Shown: positions 16,141 to 22,403, counted from the stretch's first letter. The stretch is DNA of 64,000 nucleotides from Dehalococcoidia bacterium (GCA_034420695.1 DAOULB010000054.1:78207-142206), one strand, 5' to 3'. Made by a program: numbers and translations. The notes: generated by a model not told the origin, from the sequence alone.

Positions 16141-17007
16141 GTGTCACAATTGCCGCCGGAAGTGTACCGGCTCATCGACTCCGCCCTTTCCGAAGACCAA
16201 GCCTTCAACGACCCCACAACACAGGTCCTGATTCCTCCGGACGTGATGGGAATCGGAATGCTGCGGGCCAAGGCCCACGGCGTCTTGGCCGGCGCCGGCG
16301 TCGCCATGGAGGTCTTCCGCCGCATCGACCCGGAATTGGAAACCGGCGTGCTGTTGGACGACGGGTCGCCTCTCTCCCCCGGGACTGACATCGCCGCCGT
16401 CCGCGGCAGCGCCTCCAGTATCCTACGGGGTGAGCGGACCGCCCTTAACTTCCTGCAGCGAATGTGTGGCATCGCCAGCGACACCAACCTGTACGTCCAA
16501 GCCATCCAGGGAACCCGTTCCCGGATCGTGGACACCCGTAAGACCGCGCCGGGCCACCGTTACTTGGATAAGTACGCCGTTCGTATGGGGGGTGGCTACA
16601 ATCACCGTCTCAACTTGGCCGACGGCATCCTCATCAAGGACAACCACATCCAGGCCCTGCATTCCCAGGAAGTCGGGCTGAAGGACGTAATCCAGATGGC
16701 CTTAGCCCGCGCCTCCCACACCATCAAAGTCGAAGTGGAAGTGGAAAGCCTGGAAGAGGTGGAAGAAGCCATTGAGGCCGGCGCCCATATCATCATGCTG
16801 GACAACATGCCCGTGGACATGATGGCCCAAGCCATGGGAATTATCGGCGGCCGGGCCGTGGTGGAAGCCTCCGGCGGCATCAACCACGAAACGGTGCGGG
16901 CGGTGGCCGAAACCGGCGTTGACCTCATTTCCGTCGGGGGCCTTACCCACTCCACCAAGGCCCTGGACATCAGCTTGGACCTGGAATTCAGCAGGGAGGG
17001 CGGCTAA
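16141..17007 (+). CDS. nadC: nicotinate-nucleotide diphosphorylase (carboxylating) NadC
   Basis: ALSEDQAFNDPTT N-terminus, RTALNFLQRMCGIA, DTRKT.PG.R, IMLDNM and ASGGI motifs. Confidence 0.95.
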   Translation: MSQLPPEVYRLIDSALSEDQAFNDPTTQVLIPPDVMGIGMLRAKAHGVLAGAGVAMEVFRRIDPELETGVLLDDGSPLSPGTDIAAVRGSASSILRGERTALNFLQRMCGIASDTNLYVQAIQGTRSRIVDTRKTAPGHRYLDKYAVRMGGGYNHRLNLADGILIKDNHIQALHSQEVGLKDVIQMALARASHTIKVEVEVESLEEVEEAIEAGAHIIMLDNMPVDMMAQAMGIIGGRAVVEASGGINHETVRAVAETGVDLISVGGLTHSTKALDISLDLEFSREGG

Positions 17008-17534
17008 TGCCAGCTATTGACGGTACCCGCACCGCGCTGGAGCGCAACTGGGCGATGATTGACGCCGCCGTGGAAGACTTGGACAATGAGATCCTGGCCA
17101 GGATTCCTGCGGAGCAGTGCAATTCCATCGCCTGGCTGATCTGGCACTTGGACCGGGTGATGGATACCTTCATCCACACCGGTCTACGGGATCTGCCCCA
17201 AGTCTGGATTACCGGAGGATGGGCCGAAAAGTACGGCATGGCAGTAGACGCCAATGACCGTGGGGTCGGTTGGACTGCAGAACAGGTCGCCGCTTGGAAG
17301 CCTCCCACCCGGGAGGTGCTGCTGGGCTACTACGAGGCGGTTAAGGACGCTGCCAGACAGTACTTCGAGTCTGTAACCGTGGAAGACTTGGAGCGTCAGG
17401 TGGTCTGGCCCCCAACGGCCGGGCCCCGCACCACCGCGGCGGCCTTGGGCCAGATGACTTGGGACATAGTGTCCCACGGAGGGCAGATTGCCTACCTCCG
17501 CGGCTTGTACCGGGGCATGGGCTGGCACATCTAG
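17007..17534 (+). CDS. DinB-superfamily protein
   Basis: Four-helix DinB pattern with conserved His residues (IAWLIWHLDRV ... DIVSHGGQIAYLRG). TAATG overlap with the nadC stop. Confidence 0.75.
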   Translation: MPAIDGTRTALERNWAMIDAAVEDLDNEILARIPAEQCNSIAWLIWHLDRVMDTFIHTGLRDLPQVWITGGWAEKYGMAVDANDRGVGWTAEQVAAWKPPTREVLLGYYEAVKDAARQYFESVTVEDLERQVVWPPTAGPRTTAAALGQMTWDIVSHGGQIAYLRGLYRGMGWHI

Positions 17535-17590
17535 TCCCGGCGGTTTCTGGCCATACCGCGGGTTCCCGAAGAGAATGGGAGGAGAGGATA

Positions 17591-17800
17591 TTGGAAGATC
17601 GCGTGAGAAACCTTGAGAACTTCGCGCAACTCTCCGCGGACTTTGCGGTGATGATGGAGGAGAACCTCCGCCGCATGGAAGAGAACCAGCGCCGCATGGA
17701 AGAGGACCAGCGCCGCAGGGGTGAGCTCCTGGAGCGCTTGCTCCAAGCTGTAGCGGTAATACAAGCGGAGATAGTCCGTATAGACGAGACCCATTCCTAG
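17591..17800 (+). CDS. small hypothetical coiled-coil protein (69 aa, TTG start)
   Basis: GGAGGAGAGG SD precedes the TTG at 17591. Heptad-like charged repeat EENLRRMEENQRRMEEDQRRR. No family recognised. Confidence 0.3.
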   Translation: MEDRVRNLENFAQLSADFAVMMEENLRRMEENQRRMEEDQRRRGELLERLLQAVAVIQAEIVRIDETHS

Positions 17801-17841
17801 CTGGTTGCCTGGTTGGCCGCTGGTCTGGGTCGGCCTCTTCC

Positions 17842-18306
17842 CTATCCCCGGCGGGGCAACTCCCGCTCGGCGCTGTCCAGCATGATGGTGACCGGCCCGT
17901 CGTTTTCCAGGCTAACCTGCATGTACGCCTGAAAAACTCCGGTGGCCACTTTCAGACCCTCCTTGCCCAAGGCTTCGACGGTATATTCATATAGGCTTTG
18001 GGCTTCCTCGGGAGCGGCGGCCCGGGAAAAACTGGGGCGCCTCCCCCGGCGGGTGTCGGCGTAGAGGGTAAACTGGCTTACCACGAGAAGTTCCGCCCCA
18101 ATGTCCAAGGCCGATAGATTGAACCTGCCCTCGGCGTCGGAAAAAATCCTCAGGTTGACCAGTTTGCCCACCAAGTAGTCGGCGTCGGCCCTTTCGTCCC
18201 CGGAAGCAACCCCCAAGAACACCGCCAAGCCCGGGCCTATCCGGCCTGCCTCTTCCCCTTCTACGGCAACCGAGGCGTGTTTTACCCGCTGGATCAGTGC
18301 CCGCAT
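17842..18306 (-). CDS. dtd: D-aminoacyl-tRNA deacylase
   Basis: [11 protein letters not shown]...GPGL.VFLGV and [17 protein letters not shown] motifs. Confidence 0.95.
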
Positions 18307-18513
18307 TGGGCTACCCCCGCAGGTGACAAAGGGACCGCGGATGGGGGAAGGCGATGGGGAGAGCGGCGGAACGGAGACGTGCAGGCCTGCTGGAAATGAA
18401 GGACCTCAATGAAGCGTCCCACCGTAGCGGCCTTGGCGCATTGCTGCCAAACCTGGTGAGCGCCAATGACAGGAAAGAGTTGGTTGACGCCGGAGAGAGC
18501 GTTCCCTGGTCAG

Positions 18514-18855
18514 TCAGGAGGAGGAATCGCTCCCCGCCTGCACCGTGGACCCGCTGTCGGAAGTGGAACTGGAGGAGGAACTCTCCGATGCCGCCACCTT
18601 TTCCTTGGCGGTGCTGGATGAATCTCCGTCGGAAGAAGTCTTGGACTCTTTGCTGCCGTTTTCGGCCGGCGGCTTGGGCCGTCCGTAGTCTGTGGTGTAA
18701 AATCCGGAACCCTTGTAGATGACCGGGACCGCGTGATAAACGCGCTGGCCTCGCCCGGCGCAACTGGGGCAAGTGCCCGAACCGGCTTCTTTGAAGCTCT
18801 GGACTAGTTCAAATTCGTGGCCGCAACTAACGCATCGGTAGTCGTATCGTGGCAC
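18514..18855 (-). CDS. FmdB-family zinc-ribbon protein with Ser-rich acidic tail
   Basis: VPRYDYRCVSCGHEFE...CPSC matches the FmdB/CxxC_CxxC_SSSS pattern. GTG at 18855 is preceded by AGGAGGG. The track start 18930 is unlikely. Confidence 0.8.
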   Translation of the reverse strand: MPRYDYRCVSCGHEFELVQSFKEAGSGTCPSCAGRGQRVYHAVPVIYKGSGFYTTDYGRPKPPAENGSKESKTSSDGDSSSTAKEKVAASESSSSSSTSDSGSTVQAGSDSSS

Positions 18856-18936
18856 CGGGTCCCTCCTGGGAATAAGCTCATTTACGCACAAGAACCTGCA
18901 CATTTGCAGGCCCGGTAAACCAATCCCCAATTTCCA

Positions 18937-18965
18937 AATTTACCAGCAGGGATACCGGGTGTCAA
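18937..18965 (-). promoter_or_regulatory. sigma-70-like promoter TTGACA-N17-TAAATT for the FmdB-like gene
   Basis: Minus strand reads TTGACA cccggtatccctgctgg TAAATT. The leader contains the hairpin CCTGCA aatg TGCAGG. Confidence 0.4.
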
Positions 18966-19355
18966 ATAAGCCGGCGCCTGTCTCAGGGAAACCGCCTCTG
19001 GAGACTGCATCCTTGGCGGTCCCTCGTCCTCCCCAGCCCATATCTTTCCCAATTTTTACCCCGGTATGTTAATCAAGGCCGGTTAACCCAAGCCCGCCGC
19101 GGGTCAGGGCTCCGCCGCCCGTGGACCCTGCATGGCCCGACGCCAACCCCGTCCTGCCCGTGCCTTGGATCCCTCATGAACCTGGTTCAGCCCAAACTTC
19201 GCAAGGAAAAATGGAAACATCGCCCTGTTTACTGACACTTGTCGCTTGCCACTCAGGATTGCAGCTCTCTAGCATGAATTTCAGGGCATCACGCAGCCCT
19301 CTGCCGCAATGCCCGAATACAACCGCCACTGAAGCGACCAAGAGTCCAATGCTCA

Positions 19356-19735
19356 AAAATCGATTCCAAGGGAACCCTTCCCAGGCCAAGTCCCTCCGGC
19401 CCGGACAGCACCCCTCCTCGTACCCCACCGGACACCCAAAATGGAGGGAAATGACGGGAAATGGCAGGGAAAATAAGATTTCCGGCCCTCAGCTCTCCCC
19501 GCAGCCCTCGGCCTTCCCGGACTCTGCTGAACCCGCAAAATGGCGGAAAATGACAGGAAATGGTGGGGAAATTAAAAGTTTCGGCCCCCAGTTCCCACTG
19601 AACCCCGGGCCCTCCCCGGACCCCACCCGGCCTCTAAAATGAGAAGAAATGAGAGGGAATGAGAGGGAAACCAAAAAATCCGGCCCGGCCTCCCGGCTGC
19701 TGTAAGCCATGCCCTTTATAGACCCCGGCAATCCC
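19356..19735. repeat. nested tandem repeat: 3 copies at an exact 99-nt period (19438, 19537, 19636) plus a shorter degenerate copy (19356)
   Basis: Each copy begins AAAATGG/A followed by three 10-11-nt subrepeats ATGnnGGGAA, then a T(C/T)CGGCCC box. Copies were aligned by eye. Confidence 0.85.
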
Positions 19736-19767
19736 AACAATTAGCTGGTAAAGGAGAACATCGCACT

Positions 19768-20100
19768 ATGAACCTCAATGAAATACGCCGCCGCATCGAC
19801 GCCCTTCGCAGCAAGCTGGCCCTGGAGTTGGCCGTTATCGAACTCCACCGCCTGGTCTGTGAATTTGCCCTCAAGTGGGGCATCGCCTTAGCCGGAGACC
19901 GGCCCCTGCCCGAACCCCACACCTTCCCCAGCAAGGTCGCCGCCGCCGGCGTCAAGCTGACCTCCCACATGGGCGCCGTCAAGTACCTGGAAGAGTGCCG
20001 GAGCAAGAACACCGCTCCCGAAGCCCAGAAGCTGCTCTACCGGCTGTTGCCCTGCGCCCGTGACTTCCCTTACAACGCCCTCCTCGCCTTGGACGCCTAG
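19768..20100 (+). CDS. hypothetical protein (110 aa)
   Basis: AAAGGAGAA SD upstream of the ATG. Helical-looking sequence, no family recognised. Confidence 0.5.
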   Translation: MNLNEIRRRIDALRSKLALELAVIELHRLVCEFALKWGIALAGDRPLPEPHTFPSKVAAAGVKLTSHMGAVKYLEECRSKNTAPEAQKLLYRLLPCARDFPYNALLALDA

Positions 20101-20417
20101 AGCCGGGAAGGAATTCGGGGACAGGGAAGGTTCCATGGGACCGGGAAAGAATCTTGAGTAGGAGGACTGACCGGCTGCACGGCGACCATACATTTTAGGC
20201 AGGCCATTTCCCGCAACCGCCGGGACGATAGGGCAATACTCTCCTCCCAGCCGCCATTTACTTTCCTTGTAGAGGAAAGGGGCGCCTGTGGCTGTGTATA
20301 ACTCGGCCCAGCCGAACAATTTCCTCGCCAAGCATGCCCTTCCCGATAGCAGTTCTTTTCAACCGCTGGTGATACACTCTCGCAGATAGCGGGAAGAATG
20401 TGTAAAGCGAGCGGGTA

Positions 20418-22403
20418 TTGAACTGTTCCAATTGCGGGGAAGAAATTCCCCAAGGCTCCAACTTCTGCCAGTATTGCGGCGGAGCCTTGGCTGGTGCGCC
20501 GGTTGCTGGTAGCGGCGGCTCATCTCTCGATGCTGAGACGGCTGGCGATGCTGAACCGGTAGCCCTGCGGGAAACTGTCCTGGGACTCCAGGCCGAAGTT
20601 GCCGAATTATCCCGGCGTTTGCGGGCACTGGAGAGCGTCCGGCCTGTCCCCGGCTCTGCTCCGGCGCCTGCCCGGCCTGTTGCGCCGCCCCCAACGGTAG
20701 CGCAATCCGCCGCCCCCAGGGCGGACGCTCCACCGTCCGGCGCCGCTTCCGCCCCGCCGGACGCTCCCGCGGGCGGCGGACCTCCCGGAAACCTGCCGGG
20801 CATACTGTCACCCAGCGAATGGGAGTGGCTGCTGGGGGGCAACTGGCTGGCCCGGGTCGGTATCCTGGCCTTGATCTTCGGCATTGGGTTCTTCCTCAAG
20901 CTGGCATTCGACAACGACTGGATAGGCGAGACTGGACGGGTGGTTCTGGGACTGGCGGTGGGTGTGGCCCTGCTGGGCGGCGGGGAGTATTGGAGCCGGC
21001 GCTACCCCGCGTGGGCCCAAGCGGTCACCGGCGGCGGCATAGCAGTCCTATACCTTTCCATCTTCGCCGCCTTCGCCCTCTATGACTTGGTGCCTTCCCT
21101 GGGGGCCTTGGGCTTCTCATTCCTGGTGACCCTGGCCGCGGCCGGGCTGGCCTTGCGCTACGAGTCCCGTGCCATTGCCGTGCTGGGCATTCTTGGCGGG
21201 TTTGCTACTCCGCTGATCCTGGCCGATCGGCTGCCGGAGCAGTGGGCCTTGCTGGCCTACGTCCTGGTGCTGGACCTGGGAGTGCTGGCGCTGGCTACCT
21301 TCCGGAACTGGCGCTGGTTCACTTTGCTGGCCCTGATCGGGTCGCTGGTTCTCTTCGGATTCTGGTACTTTGAACTGGAGCCTGGCCTGCTGCTGGCCCA
21401 AGTGGGCATCACCGTTATTTTCCTGATTTTTGTCGGGGCCACCACCCTGTTCCACCTGCTCTGGCGGCGGCCCCCGGGGCCGCTGGACCAAGCCCTGATG
21501 GTCTTGAATGCGGCGGCCTACTTCGGGATAAGCTATGCCCTGCTCTTCGAAGAGTTCAGGGTCTGGATGGGCGGCTTCACCCTGCTGCTCGCCCTGTTCT
21601 ACGGCCTGCTGGGATACGGGATTGTGGCGCGGCACCGGGAACAGGCGCACCTGGGCCTGTTTGCCTTGGGCATTGCCTTGGTGTTCCTGACCATCGCTGT
21701 GCCAGTCCAGTTGGGCGGGCCCTGGATTGGCGTAGCCTGGGCCGTCGAGGGCGTGGTGCTAATCTGGCTGTCCTTCTTCGTGGGCATGCCCCAGTTGCGC
21801 TGGTTCGGCCTCGCCGCCTTCGTCATCACCATCGGCTACTTGCTGCTGCTGGACCTTCCCCTCGACTTGGGTGAGTCCGGCCCCTTCGTCGCCTACGAGT
21901 ACTCCTACTGGCCTGTAATCAACCTTCGATTCCTCTCCTACGTTCTCATAATCGCAGCATCGTATGCATCGGCCTTCGCTTGGTGGCGCTGGCGGGACAA
22001 TTACGTCTCCCCCGAGGAGCGGCACTTCATACCTGTCTTCCTGGGGGTGGCTAATGCCTTGTCCCTCTGGATACTGAGCATCCAGGTTGTTATGGCGGTT
22101 GACCAAGCCGCCATTGAACCAAACATCGCCGGCAACGTTATAAGCTTGTCCCTGAGCGGGCTATGGGCCCTGTACGCTGCCGTATTGATCGTTCTGGGCA
22201 TCGTCCGCCGCTTCCGCTTGTTGCGCTTGAGCGGGTTGGGCTTGCTGGCCGTTCCCATAGCCAAGCTGTTCGTCTATGACGCGTTCAACTTGGAGCAGGA
22301 ATATCGGGTGGCGGCCTTCATCGGGTTGGGCGTCCTCCTGGTGGTCGGGGGATTCCTGTACCAACGCTACAGCAGGGTCATCCGGGAGTTCCTGCTTGAG
22401 TAA
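20418..22403 (+). CDS. zinc-ribbon + DUF2339-like polytopic membrane protein
   Basis: N-terminus NCSNCGEEIPQGSNFCQYCGG (zinc ribbon), a Pro/Ala-rich linker, then about 18 hydrophobic segments with the repeated W..R/GG pattern I associate with DUF2339. TTG start. Confidence 0.75.
   Translation: MNCSNCGEEIPQGSNFCQYCGGALAGAPVAGSGGSSLDAETAGDAEPVALRETVLGLQAEVAELSRRLRALESVRPVPGSAPAPARPVAPPPTVAQSAAPRADAPPSGAASAPPDAPAGGGPPGNLPGILSPSEWEWLLGGNWLARVGILALIFGIGFFLKLAFDNDWIGETGRVVLGLAVGVALLGGGEYWSRRYPAWAQAVTGGGIAVLYLSIFAAFALYDLVPSLGALGFSFLVTLAAAGLALRYESRAIAVLGILGGFATPLILADRLPEQWALLAYVLVLDLGVLALATFRNWRWFTLLALIGSLVLFGFWYFELEPGLLLAQVGITVIFLIFVGATTLFHLLWRRPPGPLDQALMVLNAAAYFGISYALLFEEFRVWMGGFTLLLALFYGLLGYGIVARHREQAHLGLFALGIALVFLTIAVPVQLGGPWIGVAWAVEGVVLIWLSFFVGMPQLRWFGLAAFVITIGYLLLLDLPLDLGESGPFVAYEYSYWPVINLRFLSYVLIIAASYASAFAWWRWRDNYVSPEERHFIPVFLGVANALSLWILSIQVVMAVDQAAIEPNIAGNVISLSLSGLWALYAAVLIVLGIVRRFRLLRLSGLGLLAVPIAKLFVYDAFNLEQEYRVAAFIGLGVLLVVGGFLYQRYSRVIREFLLE

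What the first reader, a model, noticed from the sequence alone, without database searches (positions are those of the whole stretch)
19356..19735. Nested tandem repeats (exact 99-nt period containing 10-11-nt GGGAA subrepeats) in a 0.8-kb gene desert
The region between the FmdB-like promoter (about 18965) and the hypothetical gene at 19768 has no credible CDS. Three units start at 19438, 19537 and 19636, exactly 99 nt apart, with a shorter degenerate unit at 19356. Each unit opens AAAATGG, then carries three subrepeats (ATGGAGGGAA ATGACGGGAA ATGGCAGGGAA; ATGGCGGAAA ATGACAGGAA ATGGTGGGGAA; ATGAGAAGAA ATGAGAGGGA ATGAGAGGGAA), then a T(C/T)CGGCCC box. If transcribed, the nine or more (A/G)GGA motifs resemble protein-titrating sRNAs of the CsrB/RsmZ type. 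As DNA they resemble an array of regulator sites just upstream of the 19768 gene.
Basis: seen in the sequence. Interest (0 to 1): 0.6.

Follow-up and report, generated by a model that had tools for sequence, protein, structure and literature searches.

The report
Relic repeats of dispersed two-gene module
The nested repeats are the leftover front end of a deleted terminase-small-subunit-like DNA-binding gene, sitting before a conserved small orphan gene in a cassette present about 17 times in this SAR202-type genome, and they most likely still act as protein-binding DNA, not as a CsrB-like RNA.

Summary
The repeats are real: three units start exactly 99 nt apart (19438, 19537, 19636). They are 62-76% identical, and each carries three 10-11-nt subrepeats and a CGGCCC box. 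The claimed fourth unit at 19356 is not a unit.

The array is not a local oddity. It belongs to a roughly 900-nt module (window about 19228-20113) that occurs about 17 times in this genome. The module has three parts: a conserved promoter-like box, 1-4 units of 99 nt, and a strongly conserved 110-aa gene (gene B, 19768-20100).

In one copy in this genome, in sister genomes and in metagenomes, an intact gene A fills the space before gene B. Gene A encodes a helix-turn-helix protein with a terminase-small-subunit (TerS) fold. In one relative the 99-nt units lie in frame inside gene A as 33-residue repeats, which explains the period. In the window the HTH part is deleted and the remnant ORF is decaying.

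The subrepeat core (AATG every 10 nt) is conserved at the nucleotide level across genera. It also stays conserved in non-coding copies.

Best reading: a phased DNA site array for the gene A protein, supplied in trans. The CsrB-type reading fails: no CsrA gene, no RNA structure, and no GGA conservation in relatives. Transcription could not be tested.

The parts
19121..19227 (+). Optional 5' extension of the module, shared by only a subset of copies (the long form).
   Evidence: blastn of the region against the genome: copies C51, C40, C5 and C45 extend to window 19121-19143. The alignment of 5' flanks shows two classes and no sharp terminus.
19228..19287 (+). Conserved 60-nt 5' box with a promoter-like site: TTGCCA (19246-19251), 18 nt, TAGCAT (19270-19275). 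A CTGACA motif lies upstream.
   Evidence: 18 copies in the genome with 1-11 mismatches. It is the least variable non-coding part (entropy 0.124). The promoter scan scores 9/12. The same TTxCCA-N18-TAxCAT layout is seen in G001, G004 and G018 modules. The promoter function is inferred.
19326..19351 (+). Conserved leader motif CCACTGA(A/G)GC, followed by a Shine-Dalgarno-like AAGAG and the ATG (19349-19351) of the ancestral gene A.
   Evidence: Found in all 15 HTH-less copies. GCCACTGAGGC is also present in G001, G004, G009 and G018.
19349..19642 (+). Remnant of gene A: a 97-codon ORF covering the N-terminal tail and repeats, with the HTH part deleted. The 173-aa ORF 19121..19642 is its GTG-extended form. 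It is a pseudogene.
   Evidence: The homologous remnant ORFs in 15 copies are 1-154 codons long. Substitutions show no 3-nt periodicity (0.52/0.52/0.43, against 0.157/0.088/0.216 in gene B). Intact versions are L037:3357-3866 and L042:1748-2467.
19438..19536 (+). Unit 1 (99 nt): three subrepeats (ATGGAGGGAA, ATGACGGGAA, ATGGCAGGGAA), an A/T-rich stretch, TCCGGCCC, then a C-rich spacer.
   Evidence: Unit profile hit at window 19435-19501, E 1.5e-16.
19537..19635 (+). Unit 2 (99 nt).
   Evidence: Unit profile hit at window 19534-19599, E 9e-18.
19636..19767 (+). Terminal unit (ATGAGAAG/ATGAGAGG type; core 19636-19699), followed by the remnant 3' end of gene A and the gene B ribosome-binding site AAAGGAG.
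   Evidence: Unit profile hit at window 19633-19699. The terminal unit sits at -130 from the gene B ATG in most copies. It is the best conserved unit (entropy 0.243). The last ~40 nt align with the 3' end of intact gene A.
19768..20100 (+). Gene B: a 110-aa all-helical orphan protein, the conserved cargo of the module.
   Evidence: 17 paralogues in the genome at 86-97% amino-acid identity. Substitution pattern is coding-type. No Pfam, NCBIfam, PADLOC or PHROG family. 144 cluster representatives among 1.84 billion proteins. AF2 pLDDT 89.6, with no Foldseek match in PDB or BFVD.
20101..20125 (+). 3' edge of the module: similarity between copies ends 13-25 nt after the stop codon.

Best explanation
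WHAT IT IS (shown, about 0.9). The array is the tandemly triplicated 5' segment of a gene that has lost its body. The genome carries a dispersed two-gene module. Its order is: a promoter-like box, gene A (a helix-turn-helix protein with a terminase-small-subunit fold), then gene B (a 110-aa orphan protein). One main-family copy is intact (contig C15). About 16 copies, including the window's, are internal-deletion derivatives. They keep the promoter-like box, the start and N-terminal part of gene A, and gene B. In an intact relative the 99-nt units are in-frame 33-codon repeats in the disordered N-terminal tail of protein A. That explains the exact 3n period. In the window they are an untranslated or pseudogenic leader of about 420 nt before gene B.

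HOW IT MOST LIKELY WORKS (inferred, about 0.4). The nested subrepeats (core AATG(G) every 10-11 bp, three per unit, then an A/T-rich near-palindrome) are a DNA-level element. It is embedded in the 5' part of gene A in every lineage. The closest parallel is the direct repeats of the SPP1 pac region, which span the promoters and the start of the terS gene. I propose they are the recognition sites of protein A. On this model the A oligomer, supplied in trans from the master copy, binds the phased A-tract-rich sites that lie between the module promoter and gene B. Binding gates transcription of gene B and possibly read-through into the co-oriented downstream operon. Multiplied units in A-less copies would raise avidity. 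Binding, the direction of the effect and transcription itself have not been shown.
For: Module and copy number:
- blastn and tblastn against the genome give about 17 copies of window 19228-20113.
- A unit profile finds 61 units. Modules carry 1-4 units, and 21 of 27 internal units are exactly 99 nt from the next.

Gene A in place of the array:
- Seen in the C15 copy (L037), G018, G009 and G004.
- Every genome with gene B has at least one intact gene A next to a gene B.
- L042 has three units in frame inside an intact 239-aa gene A, spaced about 99 and about 102 nt.

Decay of the remnant:
- Remnant ORFs are 1-154 codons long over 15 copies, and show no codon periodicity.

Nucleotide-level constraint:
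- The 10-nt repeat is read in two frames (E-M and G-N).
- The Asn codon inside the motif is AAT in 17 of 18 gene A sequences, against AAT:AAC = 7:32 elsewhere in the same genes (Fisher p 4e-8; about 9 independent lineages).
- G001 and G004 have perfect TGTCCGGAAA x3 only at modules (15 hits, 0 in the reversed-pattern control).
- In non-coding copies the cores are about half as variable as the spacers (0.24-0.43 against 0.51-0.86).
- Solo cores survive without the rest of the module.

Protein A is a DNA binder of TerS type:
- Pfam PF13022 at 28.6 bits against a cut-off of 27.9; PHROG 'terminase small subunit' at 9e-7.
- AF2 model with an HTH plus a long helical hairpin. Best Foldseek hit is 2AO9 (probability 0.99, E 0.02). 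2AO9 is described as a putative nonameric TerS (PMC7672466).
- The SPP1 pac region has direct repeats spanning the promoters and the start of terS (PMC4737164).

Position:
- The array lies between the promoter-like box and gene B.
- The next gene is co-oriented in 14 of 14 own copies and 15 of 16 copies in relatives.
Against: - No binding, transcription or expression data exist.
- The master copy's own motif is weaker (about 2.5 subrepeats) than those of the A-less copies.
- The Foldseek match to 2AO9 has high probability but a weak E-value (0.02) and TM 0.33-0.47. The Pfam hit is only just above its cut-off, and the C15 protein itself falls below it (17.1 bits).
- For SF6/SPP1, the isolated TerS DNA-binding domain showed little preference for the box repeats (PMC4737164). 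Repeats near a terS gene are therefore not proof of specific binding.
- 99 bp is 9.4 helical turns, so successive units are not in phase on B-DNA.
- Concerted evolution (gene conversion between copies) could mimic purifying selection on the cores.
- The binder could be protein B or a host factor instead of protein A.
Confidence: 0.45

Rival explanations
1. Pure relic. The array is only the pseudogenised, slippage-amplified 5' end of gene A and has no present function. Its apparent conservation comes from recent spread and gene conversion among module copies.
For: Remnant ORFs decay: lengths run from 1 to 154 codons and there is no codon periodicity. Unit number varies from 1 to 4. Six of 27 internal units have spacings other than 99 nt (88-100). 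The module ends are ragged.
Against: In non-coding copies the cores are about twice as conserved as the spacers, and the terminal core (0.243) approaches gene B (0.154). Solo cores persist after the rest of the module is lost. The AATG x3 pattern at 10 nt is held across genera against codon preference.
Confidence: 0.2
2. RNA-level element. The array is transcribed as the leader of gene B or as a separate sRNA. It acts either by titrating an RNA-binding protein (CsrB-like) or through its purine-rich SD-like AUG-bearing motifs and CCUCC-rich spacers, which would modulate ribosome loading on gene B.
For: It lies on the sense strand between a promoter-like box and gene B. In this lineage each subrepeat looks like SD+AUG (GGAGGGAAAUG), and the spacers and the post-array segment carry CCUCC. 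Orientation is strictly kept relative to downstream genes.
Against: There is no CsrA gene and no Rfam hit. Fold z-scores are +1.34 and +0.69. RNAalifold gives -3.6, -1.2 and -4.8 kcal/mol with no compensatory pairs. The purine-rich character is lineage-specific, since relatives have TGTCCGG or TGGCCC. A 10-10.5-nt period fits the DNA helix. Several solo units lie upstream of sigma-70-like promoters rather than inside leaders.
Confidence: 0.12
3. pac-like mobilisation sites. Protein A is a true small terminase, and the repeat arrays are packaging-recognition sites. These either spread the module or direct packaging of adjacent chromosomal DNA into particles of a helper phage or gene transfer agent.
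For: Protein A has a TerS-like fold and family. The layout of direct repeats over the promoter and the 5' end of the gene matches SPP1 pac. The distribution is all-or-many and patchy among relatives: 0 copies, or 1-25. A-less derivatives outnumber intact copies, as with non-autonomous elements. A distant gene A relative lies 2.5 kb upstream of a TerL on a viral contig.
Against: No TerL of families PF03237 or PF03354 is found in the genome. No phage genes lie next to any of the copies inspected. There are no sharp ends, terminal inverted repeats or target duplications. Copies are 75-93% identical, so they are old, not recently moved.
Confidence: 0.1
4. The binder is not protein A. The phased sites are operators of protein B (encoded directly downstream, in every copy) or of a host nucleoid protein that recognises curved A-tract DNA.
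For: Gene B is present in every module copy, whereas gene A is mostly deleted. B and A are fused in one metagenomic ORF, P0147. A3-5 tracts recur every 10-11 bp, four to five times per unit (consensus).
Against: The protein B model has no recognisable DNA-binding fold and no structural neighbour. The site sequence changes between lineages, which suggests a co-evolving specific binder, not shape read-out alone.
Confidence: 0.13

Closest known systems
Phage SPP1/SF6 pac region with its small terminase gene (TerS; structural relative PDB 2AO9)
   Same: Both have an HTH protein with a TerS-type fold. In both, the 5' gene region and upstream promoter region carry sets of short direct repeats (PMC4737164).
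   Different: Here there is no large terminase or any phage gene nearby or in the genome. The unit is a 0.9-1.5-kb cassette present in 1-25 copies per genome, and most copies have the TerS-like gene deleted. It is always paired with an orphan 110-aa gene. Neither cleavage nor packaging is known.
Modular dispersed intergenic repeats with a variable number of internal tandem subunits, such as pneumococcal BOX elements (boxA-boxB(n)-boxC) (from my own knowledge, not checked here)
   Same: Both are multi-copy and intergenic. Both have a conserved head, 1-4 tandem internal units and a conserved tail. Both sit upstream of genes, where they could affect expression.
   Different: This module carries a protein-coding gene under purifying selection. 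Its internal units descend from coding sequence. No stable RNA or DNA hairpin was found, nor terminal inverted repeats.
CsrB/RsmZ-type protein-sponge sRNAs
   Same: Many (A/G)GGA motifs are clustered in a non-coding stretch of about 300 nt.
   Different: There is no CsrA partner and no Rfam match. GGA is not presented in conserved hairpin loops. The motif is not conserved in sister lineages.
Autonomous and non-autonomous pairs of mobile elements (a master copy plus internally deleted derivatives acted on in trans)
   Same: There are one or a few intact two-gene copies and many copies with an internal deletion of the DNA-binding gene. The deleted copies keep its cis sites. Distribution among related genomes is patchy.
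   Different: There is no transposase, integrase or recombinase in the module. There are no defined termini or target duplications. Copies are diverged (75-93%) and show a strict orientation bias towards the downstream gene.

Membership tests
CsrB/RsmZ-type titrating sRNA | A cognate CsrA/RsmA-family protein is encoded in the genome. | tested here: not met
   PF02599 search of the whole 95%-complete genome gave 0 matches. Controls were positive in E. coli, B. subtilis and T. maritima.
CsrB/RsmZ-type titrating sRNA | Repeated GGA motifs are exposed in the loops of conserved hairpins. | tested here: not met
   The MFE is no better than shuffles (z +1.34 and +0.69). The consensus fold of 27 units is -3.6 kcal/mol without compensatory changes. 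GGA is absent from the homologous subrepeats in G001, G004 and G018.
CsrB/RsmZ-type titrating sRNA | Match to a curated RNA family. | tested here: not met
   Rfam 15 with permissive thresholds over 17000-22000 gave only one chance-level hit elsewhere.
CsrB/RsmZ-type titrating sRNA | Transcribed as a discrete, abundant small RNA. | not testable with these tools
Type III toxin-antitoxin (ToxIN-like: tandem RNA repeats upstream of a toxin gene) | The downstream gene belongs to a ToxN/AbiQ-type endoribonuclease family or another known defence family. | tested here: not met
   Gene B has no PADLOC, Pfam or NCBIfam hit. Its all-helical model has no structural neighbour.
Type III toxin-antitoxin (ToxIN-like: tandem RNA repeats upstream of a toxin gene) | The repeats are a dedicated non-coding antitoxin array. 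| tested here: not met
   The units are homologous to in-frame coding repeats of gene A, and many relatives have only one unit.
Small terminase (TerS) with pac site | An N-terminal HTH DNA-binding domain followed by a helical oligomerisation core. | tested here: met
   This refers to gene A, which is not in the window (C15 copy or L042). AF2 pLDDT is 81.7, with helices H48-82 (HTH region) and H84-120/H125-164. Foldseek best hit is 2AO9 at probability 0.99, E 0.02. PF13022 scores 28.6 against a cut-off of 27.9 for the G018 copy, and PHROG terminase small subunit scores 9e-7.
Small terminase (TerS) with pac site | Encoded next to a large terminase and head genes. | tested here: not met
   Neighbours of all copies are unrelated cellular genes. 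No PF03237 or PF03354 TerL is found in the genome.
Small terminase (TerS) with pac site | Direct repeats in or beside the 5' end of its own gene that serve as the recognition site. | tested here: inconclusive
   The repeats are present and conserved at the nucleotide level. Binding was not tested.
MITE/BOX-type non-coding dispersed repeat | Terminal inverted repeats and/or target-site duplications, and no coding capacity. | tested here: not met
   No terminal inverted repeats were found. The 5' ends are ragged and the 3' end lies at the gene B stop codon. The module carries a conserved gene.
MITE/BOX-type non-coding dispersed repeat | Many dispersed intergenic copies with a variable number of internal tandem subunits. 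| tested here: met
   61 units lie in about 17 modules plus about 16 solo sites, with 1-4 units per module.

The most novel reading that the evidence does not exclude
The arrays are pac-like recognition sites of a domesticated or satellite-type small terminase, scattered through SAR202 chromosomes. Protein A would nucleate on them. With a helper phage or GTA-like packaging motor, it would start directional packaging of the co-oriented downstream genes. The module would then be a minimal 'transduction beacon' that promotes horizontal spread of itself and of neighbouring catabolic and housekeeping genes. Alternatively, the A/B pair is a new kind of selfish cassette that moves without a recognisable recombinase.
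Probability: 0.1. Interest if true: 0.8.

Novelty: new variant of a known kind. Interest (0 to 1): 0.5.

Why it matters
SAR202 Dehalococcoidia are abundant deep-ocean bacteria that cannot yet be grown or manipulated, and almost nothing is known about their gene regulation or mobile DNA.

This finding defines a compact, recurrent cassette: a promoter-like box, a TerS-fold DNA-binding gene with embedded phased sites, and an orphan 110-aa gene with a confident but unmatched fold. The cassette sits upstream of, and co-oriented with, all kinds of operons in several genera. Its deleted derivatives keep and even multiply the cis sites.

If the sites are bound by protein A, two things follow. It would be an example of a phage packaging-type DNA recogniser reused in a cellular, multi-copy context. 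It would also give a concrete protein-DNA pair that can be tested in vitro without culturing the organism.

On the practical side, the family breaks this assembly at six contig ends, and its remnant ORFs are likely to be mis-annotated as genes.

Tried and rejected
- CsrB-like sponge: rejected (no CsrA; no Rfam hit; no structure).
- Type III toxin-antitoxin reading (RNA repeats plus toxin): rejected (no defence-family hit; units derive from coding sequence).
- Real 173-aa protein: rejected.
- Each unit as its own promoter (ATGACA-17-TAAAAG-type matches seen by eye): not pursued. The matches are weak, fall below the scan threshold and are not conserved in G018.
- SD-sequestering hairpin before gene B: alifold gives only -4.8 kcal/mol with no covariation.
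- Fold of gene B: Foldseek against PDB and BFVD gave nothing below E = 1.
- Named relatives: the search for related loci in genome contigs found none.
- Empty-site search through synteny in the genus failed. Only one distant orthologue of the downstream DUF2339 gene was found, so insertion boundaries could not be defined that way.
- Same-locus strain comparison: the only other record (L041) is identical over 3333 nt, so copy-number variation between strains could not be judged.
- Literature search for SAR202 repeat elements found nothing relevant.
- One Python run timed out and was repeated in part.
- DNA curvature was not computed, because I would have had to recall the wedge parameters from memory.

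Full report
**1. The observation**

The stretch 19438-19735 contains three head-to-tail units that start at 19438, 19537 and 19636, exactly 99 nt apart.
- The copies are diverged: 71% and 62% identity to the first copy, and 76% matches in TRF. 'Exact' applies to the period, not to the sequence.
- Each unit opens with AAAATG. It then has three subrepeats of 10-11 nt (AATGnnGGGAA type), an A/T-rich stretch, (T/C)CGGCCC, and a C-rich spacer.
- The subrepeat pattern GRAAATGRNRG occurs 9 times in the window against 1.8 expected.
- The reported fourth, 'shorter degenerate' unit at 19356 is not a unit. A profile built from the units does not find it. That stretch is the start of an ancestral ORF.

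**2. The array is one copy of a genome-wide module**

Searching the assembly (3.43 Mb, 61 contigs, 60.7% G+C) with the array gave 24 matches. Extending the query showed that the repeated entity is about 900 nt, window about 19228 to 20113.

The module has three parts:
- (i) A 60-nt conserved box (19228-19287) with a promoter-like TTGCCA-18-TAGCAT.
- (ii) A leader with 1-4 units of 99 nt.
- (iii) The 110-aa ORF 19768-20100, called gene B here.

tblastn finds 14 full-length and several truncated copies of gene B at 86-97% amino-acid identity. Six copies lie at contig ends, which shows that the family breaks the assembly.

A unit profile finds 61 units in the genome. Twenty-one of 27 internal units are exactly 99 nt from the next; the others are 88-100 nt. 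Distances from the box to the gene B ATG fall in four classes (-302, -411/-424, -490 to -540, -623), corresponding to 1, 2, 3 and 4 units.

Flanks outside the module are unrelated between copies.

A metagenomic relative (L038, gene B 89% identical) has the same layout with three units 99 nt apart.

Earlier notes of this scan describe the genome as a SAR202-type Dehalococcoidia MAG. I did not test that.

**3. What the units were**

In one own copy (C15; L037), an intact gene fills the space between the box and gene B. The same holds in G018, G009 and G004, which belong to the same family. This gene A has 136-249 codons and carries a helix-turn-helix ('...LSFRQQSALP...TLRRWL.D.DFR').

Every genome that has gene B also has at least one intact gene A directly upstream of a gene B.

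The decisive locus is L042, from a metagenome. There an intact 239-aa gene A contains three units inside its coding region, in frame, about 99 and about 102 nt apart. They encode 33-34-residue repeats (SPEWVEMAGNGGENEI...) ahead of the HTH. The 99-nt period is therefore 33 codons of the disordered N-terminal tail of protein A.

In the window, the HTH-encoding body is deleted. What remains:
- The conserved leader motif CCACTGA(A/G)GC.
- The Shine-Dalgarno-like sequence and the ATG (19349).
- The N-terminal tail with the units.
- About 40 nt of the gene A 3' end before the gene B ribosome-binding site.

**4. The remnant ORF is not a gene**

Measured from the conserved ATG, the remnant ORF in the 15 A-less copies is 97, 154, 121, 121, 70, 1, 70, 103, 100, 40, 40, 6, 121, 121 and 26 codons long. 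The copies whose unit spacing is not a multiple of three are among the truncated ones.

Substitutions between copies show no codon periodicity in this frame (mean column entropy 0.52/0.52/0.43). Gene B shows the coding pattern (0.157/0.088/0.216).

**5. The nested subrepeats are a nucleotide-level element**

I aligned gene A sequences from distant lineages on the 'L(S/T)xRQQ' anchor. All carry (A)ATG three times at a 10-nt period, with lineage-specific filler:

| Lineage | Subrepeat filler |
|---|---|
| This genome | TGGnGGGAAA |
| G001, G004 | TGTCCGGAAA |
| G009, G018 | TGGC(T/C)C, TGTCCCA |

The supporting points are:
- A 10-nt period cannot be a peptide repeat. The same DNA word is read as E-M in one copy and as G-N in the next.
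- The Asn codon inside the motif is AAT in 17 of 18 sequences (about 8 of 9 independent lineages). Elsewhere in the same genes AAT:AAC is 7:32 (Fisher p 4e-8 on the raw counts, which overstate independence).
- In G001 and G004, perfect TGTCCGGAAA x3 occurs only at modules (15 hits, 0 for the reversed control).
- In this genome's non-coding copies, the cores are about half as variable as the spacers (0.43/0.36/0.24 against 0.86/0.51). The terminal core approaches gene B at 0.154.
- About 16 solo cores survive away from gene B. About 12 of them lie upstream of, and co-oriented with, the next gene, and several are followed by sigma-70-like promoters.

**6. RNA-level readings fare badly**

- There is no CsrA gene and no Rfam match.
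- The 298-nt array folds worse than its dinucleotide shuffles on both strands (z +1.34 and +0.69).
- RNAalifold on 27 internal units gives -3.6 (+) and -1.2 (-) kcal/mol with only G-C/G-U variation. The terminal unit to gene B segment gives -4.8 kcal/mol with no covariation.
- The GGA or purine-rich character is specific to this lineage.

**7. The proteins**

Protein A:
- It matches Pfam PF13022 (HTH_Tnp_1_2) just above the cut-off for the G018 copy and below it for the C15 copy.
- It matches PHROG 'terminase small subunit' families.
- Its AF2 model (pLDDT 81.7) has a disordered tail (residues 1-45, where the units are), a small HTH domain and two helices of 37 and 40 residues.
- The best PDB neighbour is 2AO9 (probability 0.99, E 0.02, TM 0.33-0.47). 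The literature treats 2AO9 as a putative nonameric small terminase of a B. cereus prophage (PMC7672466).
- A profile search of PDB sequences gave nothing significant.
[quoted passage not shown] That is the same layout as here. The same paper found that the isolated DNA-binding domain has little preference for those repeats, which is a caution.
- A distant relative of gene A on a viral contig lies 2.5 kb upstream of a Terminase_6N large subunit.
- In this genome there is no large terminase of families PF03237 or PF03354, and no phage gene beside the copies inspected.

Protein B:
- It has no family.
- It has 144 cluster representatives among 1.84 billion proteins.
- Its all-helical model is confident (pLDDT 89.6), with no neighbour in PDB or BFVD.
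- One metagenomic ORF (P0147) fuses A and B.

**8. Genomic behaviour**

- Among 40 relatives, the family is absent from 32 genomes and present in 1-25 copies in eight.
- Intact A copies are a minority: 1 of about 17 here in the main family, plus three divergent A-B pairs on C13, C31 and C10.
- The next downstream gene is on the same strand in 14 of 14 own copies and 15 of 16 inspected copies in relatives. These downstream genes include housekeeping genes such as uvrA, alaS, leuS, dnaJ and dnaG. Upstream neighbours point either way.
- No transposase or recombinase lies in the module. No terminal inverted repeats or target duplications are found, the 5' edge is ragged, and copies are 75-93% identical.
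- How the module multiplies remains unknown.

**9. Explanation and confidence**

Identity is well supported (about 0.9). The array is the triplicated 5' coding segment of a deleted TerS-like gene, within a dispersed A-B module.

The mechanism is inferred (about 0.4). The phased AATG subrepeats plus the A/T-rich near-palindrome are recognition sites for protein A, acting in trans from the master copy. They lie between the module promoter and gene B, and so would gate gene B transcription and perhaps read-through into the downstream operon.

The rivals and their odds:

| Rival | Odds |
|---|---|
| Functionless relic | 0.2 |
| Binder is protein B or a host nucleoid protein | 0.13 |
| RNA-level leader or sponge | 0.12 |
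| pac-like mobilisation or packaging site | 0.1 |

**10. Novelty**

The components resemble known things: the TerS fold, direct repeats at a terS 5' end, and modular dispersed repeats with variable internal subunits. The combination appears undescribed. I found no literature on it, and neither family carries a name in the protein collections searched.

What is unusual:
- It is a cellular, multi-copy, phage-free cassette.
- It is always paired with an orphan gene.
- It has deletion derivatives that retain and multiply the cis sites.

I rate it a new variant of a known kind, of moderate interest.

Noticed in passing
window 20203-20213 and 20253-20266: Two reverse-complement subrepeat-like motifs (GCCATTTCCCG and GCCATTTACTTTCC) lie 50 nt apart, about 150-200 nt upstream of the DUF2339 gene (20418). 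They may be a degenerate inverted unit. The stretch 20128-20301 is also found after another gene B copy (C28:268-441, 75%).
   Followed up: partly
downstream of gene B copies on contigs C28, C55, C52, C40, C45, C24, C51, C15, C19, C12 (own genome, outside the window): Three other small dispersed palindromic repeats recur just after gene B copies: GTAGGGGCGGGTTTGAAACCCGCCC, GTAGGGGCGTCCCTTGTGGGCGCCC, and CTTCTCCCTTnnnGGGAGAAGGTTGCACAATGAGG. They look like REP- or terminator-type elements.
   Followed up: no
own genome C45:80489-80815 (-): The module's 5' box and leader are fused to a fragment of a different, XRE-like HTH ORF instead of the units and gene B. This is a recombinant and shows that the 5' part can travel alone.
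   Followed up: no
own genome C5:98696-99233 (-): This copy has the 5' box and three units but no gene B. It is followed directly by a strong TTGACA-17-TATATT promoter and a luciferase-like monooxygenase gene.
   Followed up: partly
contig ends C8:1-417, C44:1-640, C10:77444-78263, C28:1-183, C51:158249-158445, C54:142311-142430: Six contigs end inside copies of the module. The family is therefore a cause of assembly fragmentation, and the true copy number may be higher.
   Followed up: no
L027, L028, L030 (genome G009): Gene A copies in G009 are interrupted by a small inserted repeat that translates as ...VGAKNLSPLP.... The same repeat forms arrays downstream of L030.
   Followed up: no
protein P0147 (metagenome, 312 aa): Gene A and gene B are joined in a single ORF. 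This is either a Rosetta-stone hint that the two proteins work together or a read-through artefact.
   Followed up: no
L023:1942-2451 (-) and paralogous stretches in L022, L024 (genome G018): A MaoC/hotdog-like gene upstream of several G018 modules is duplicated together with them. Some copies therefore spread by segmental duplication with neighbouring genes.
   Followed up: no
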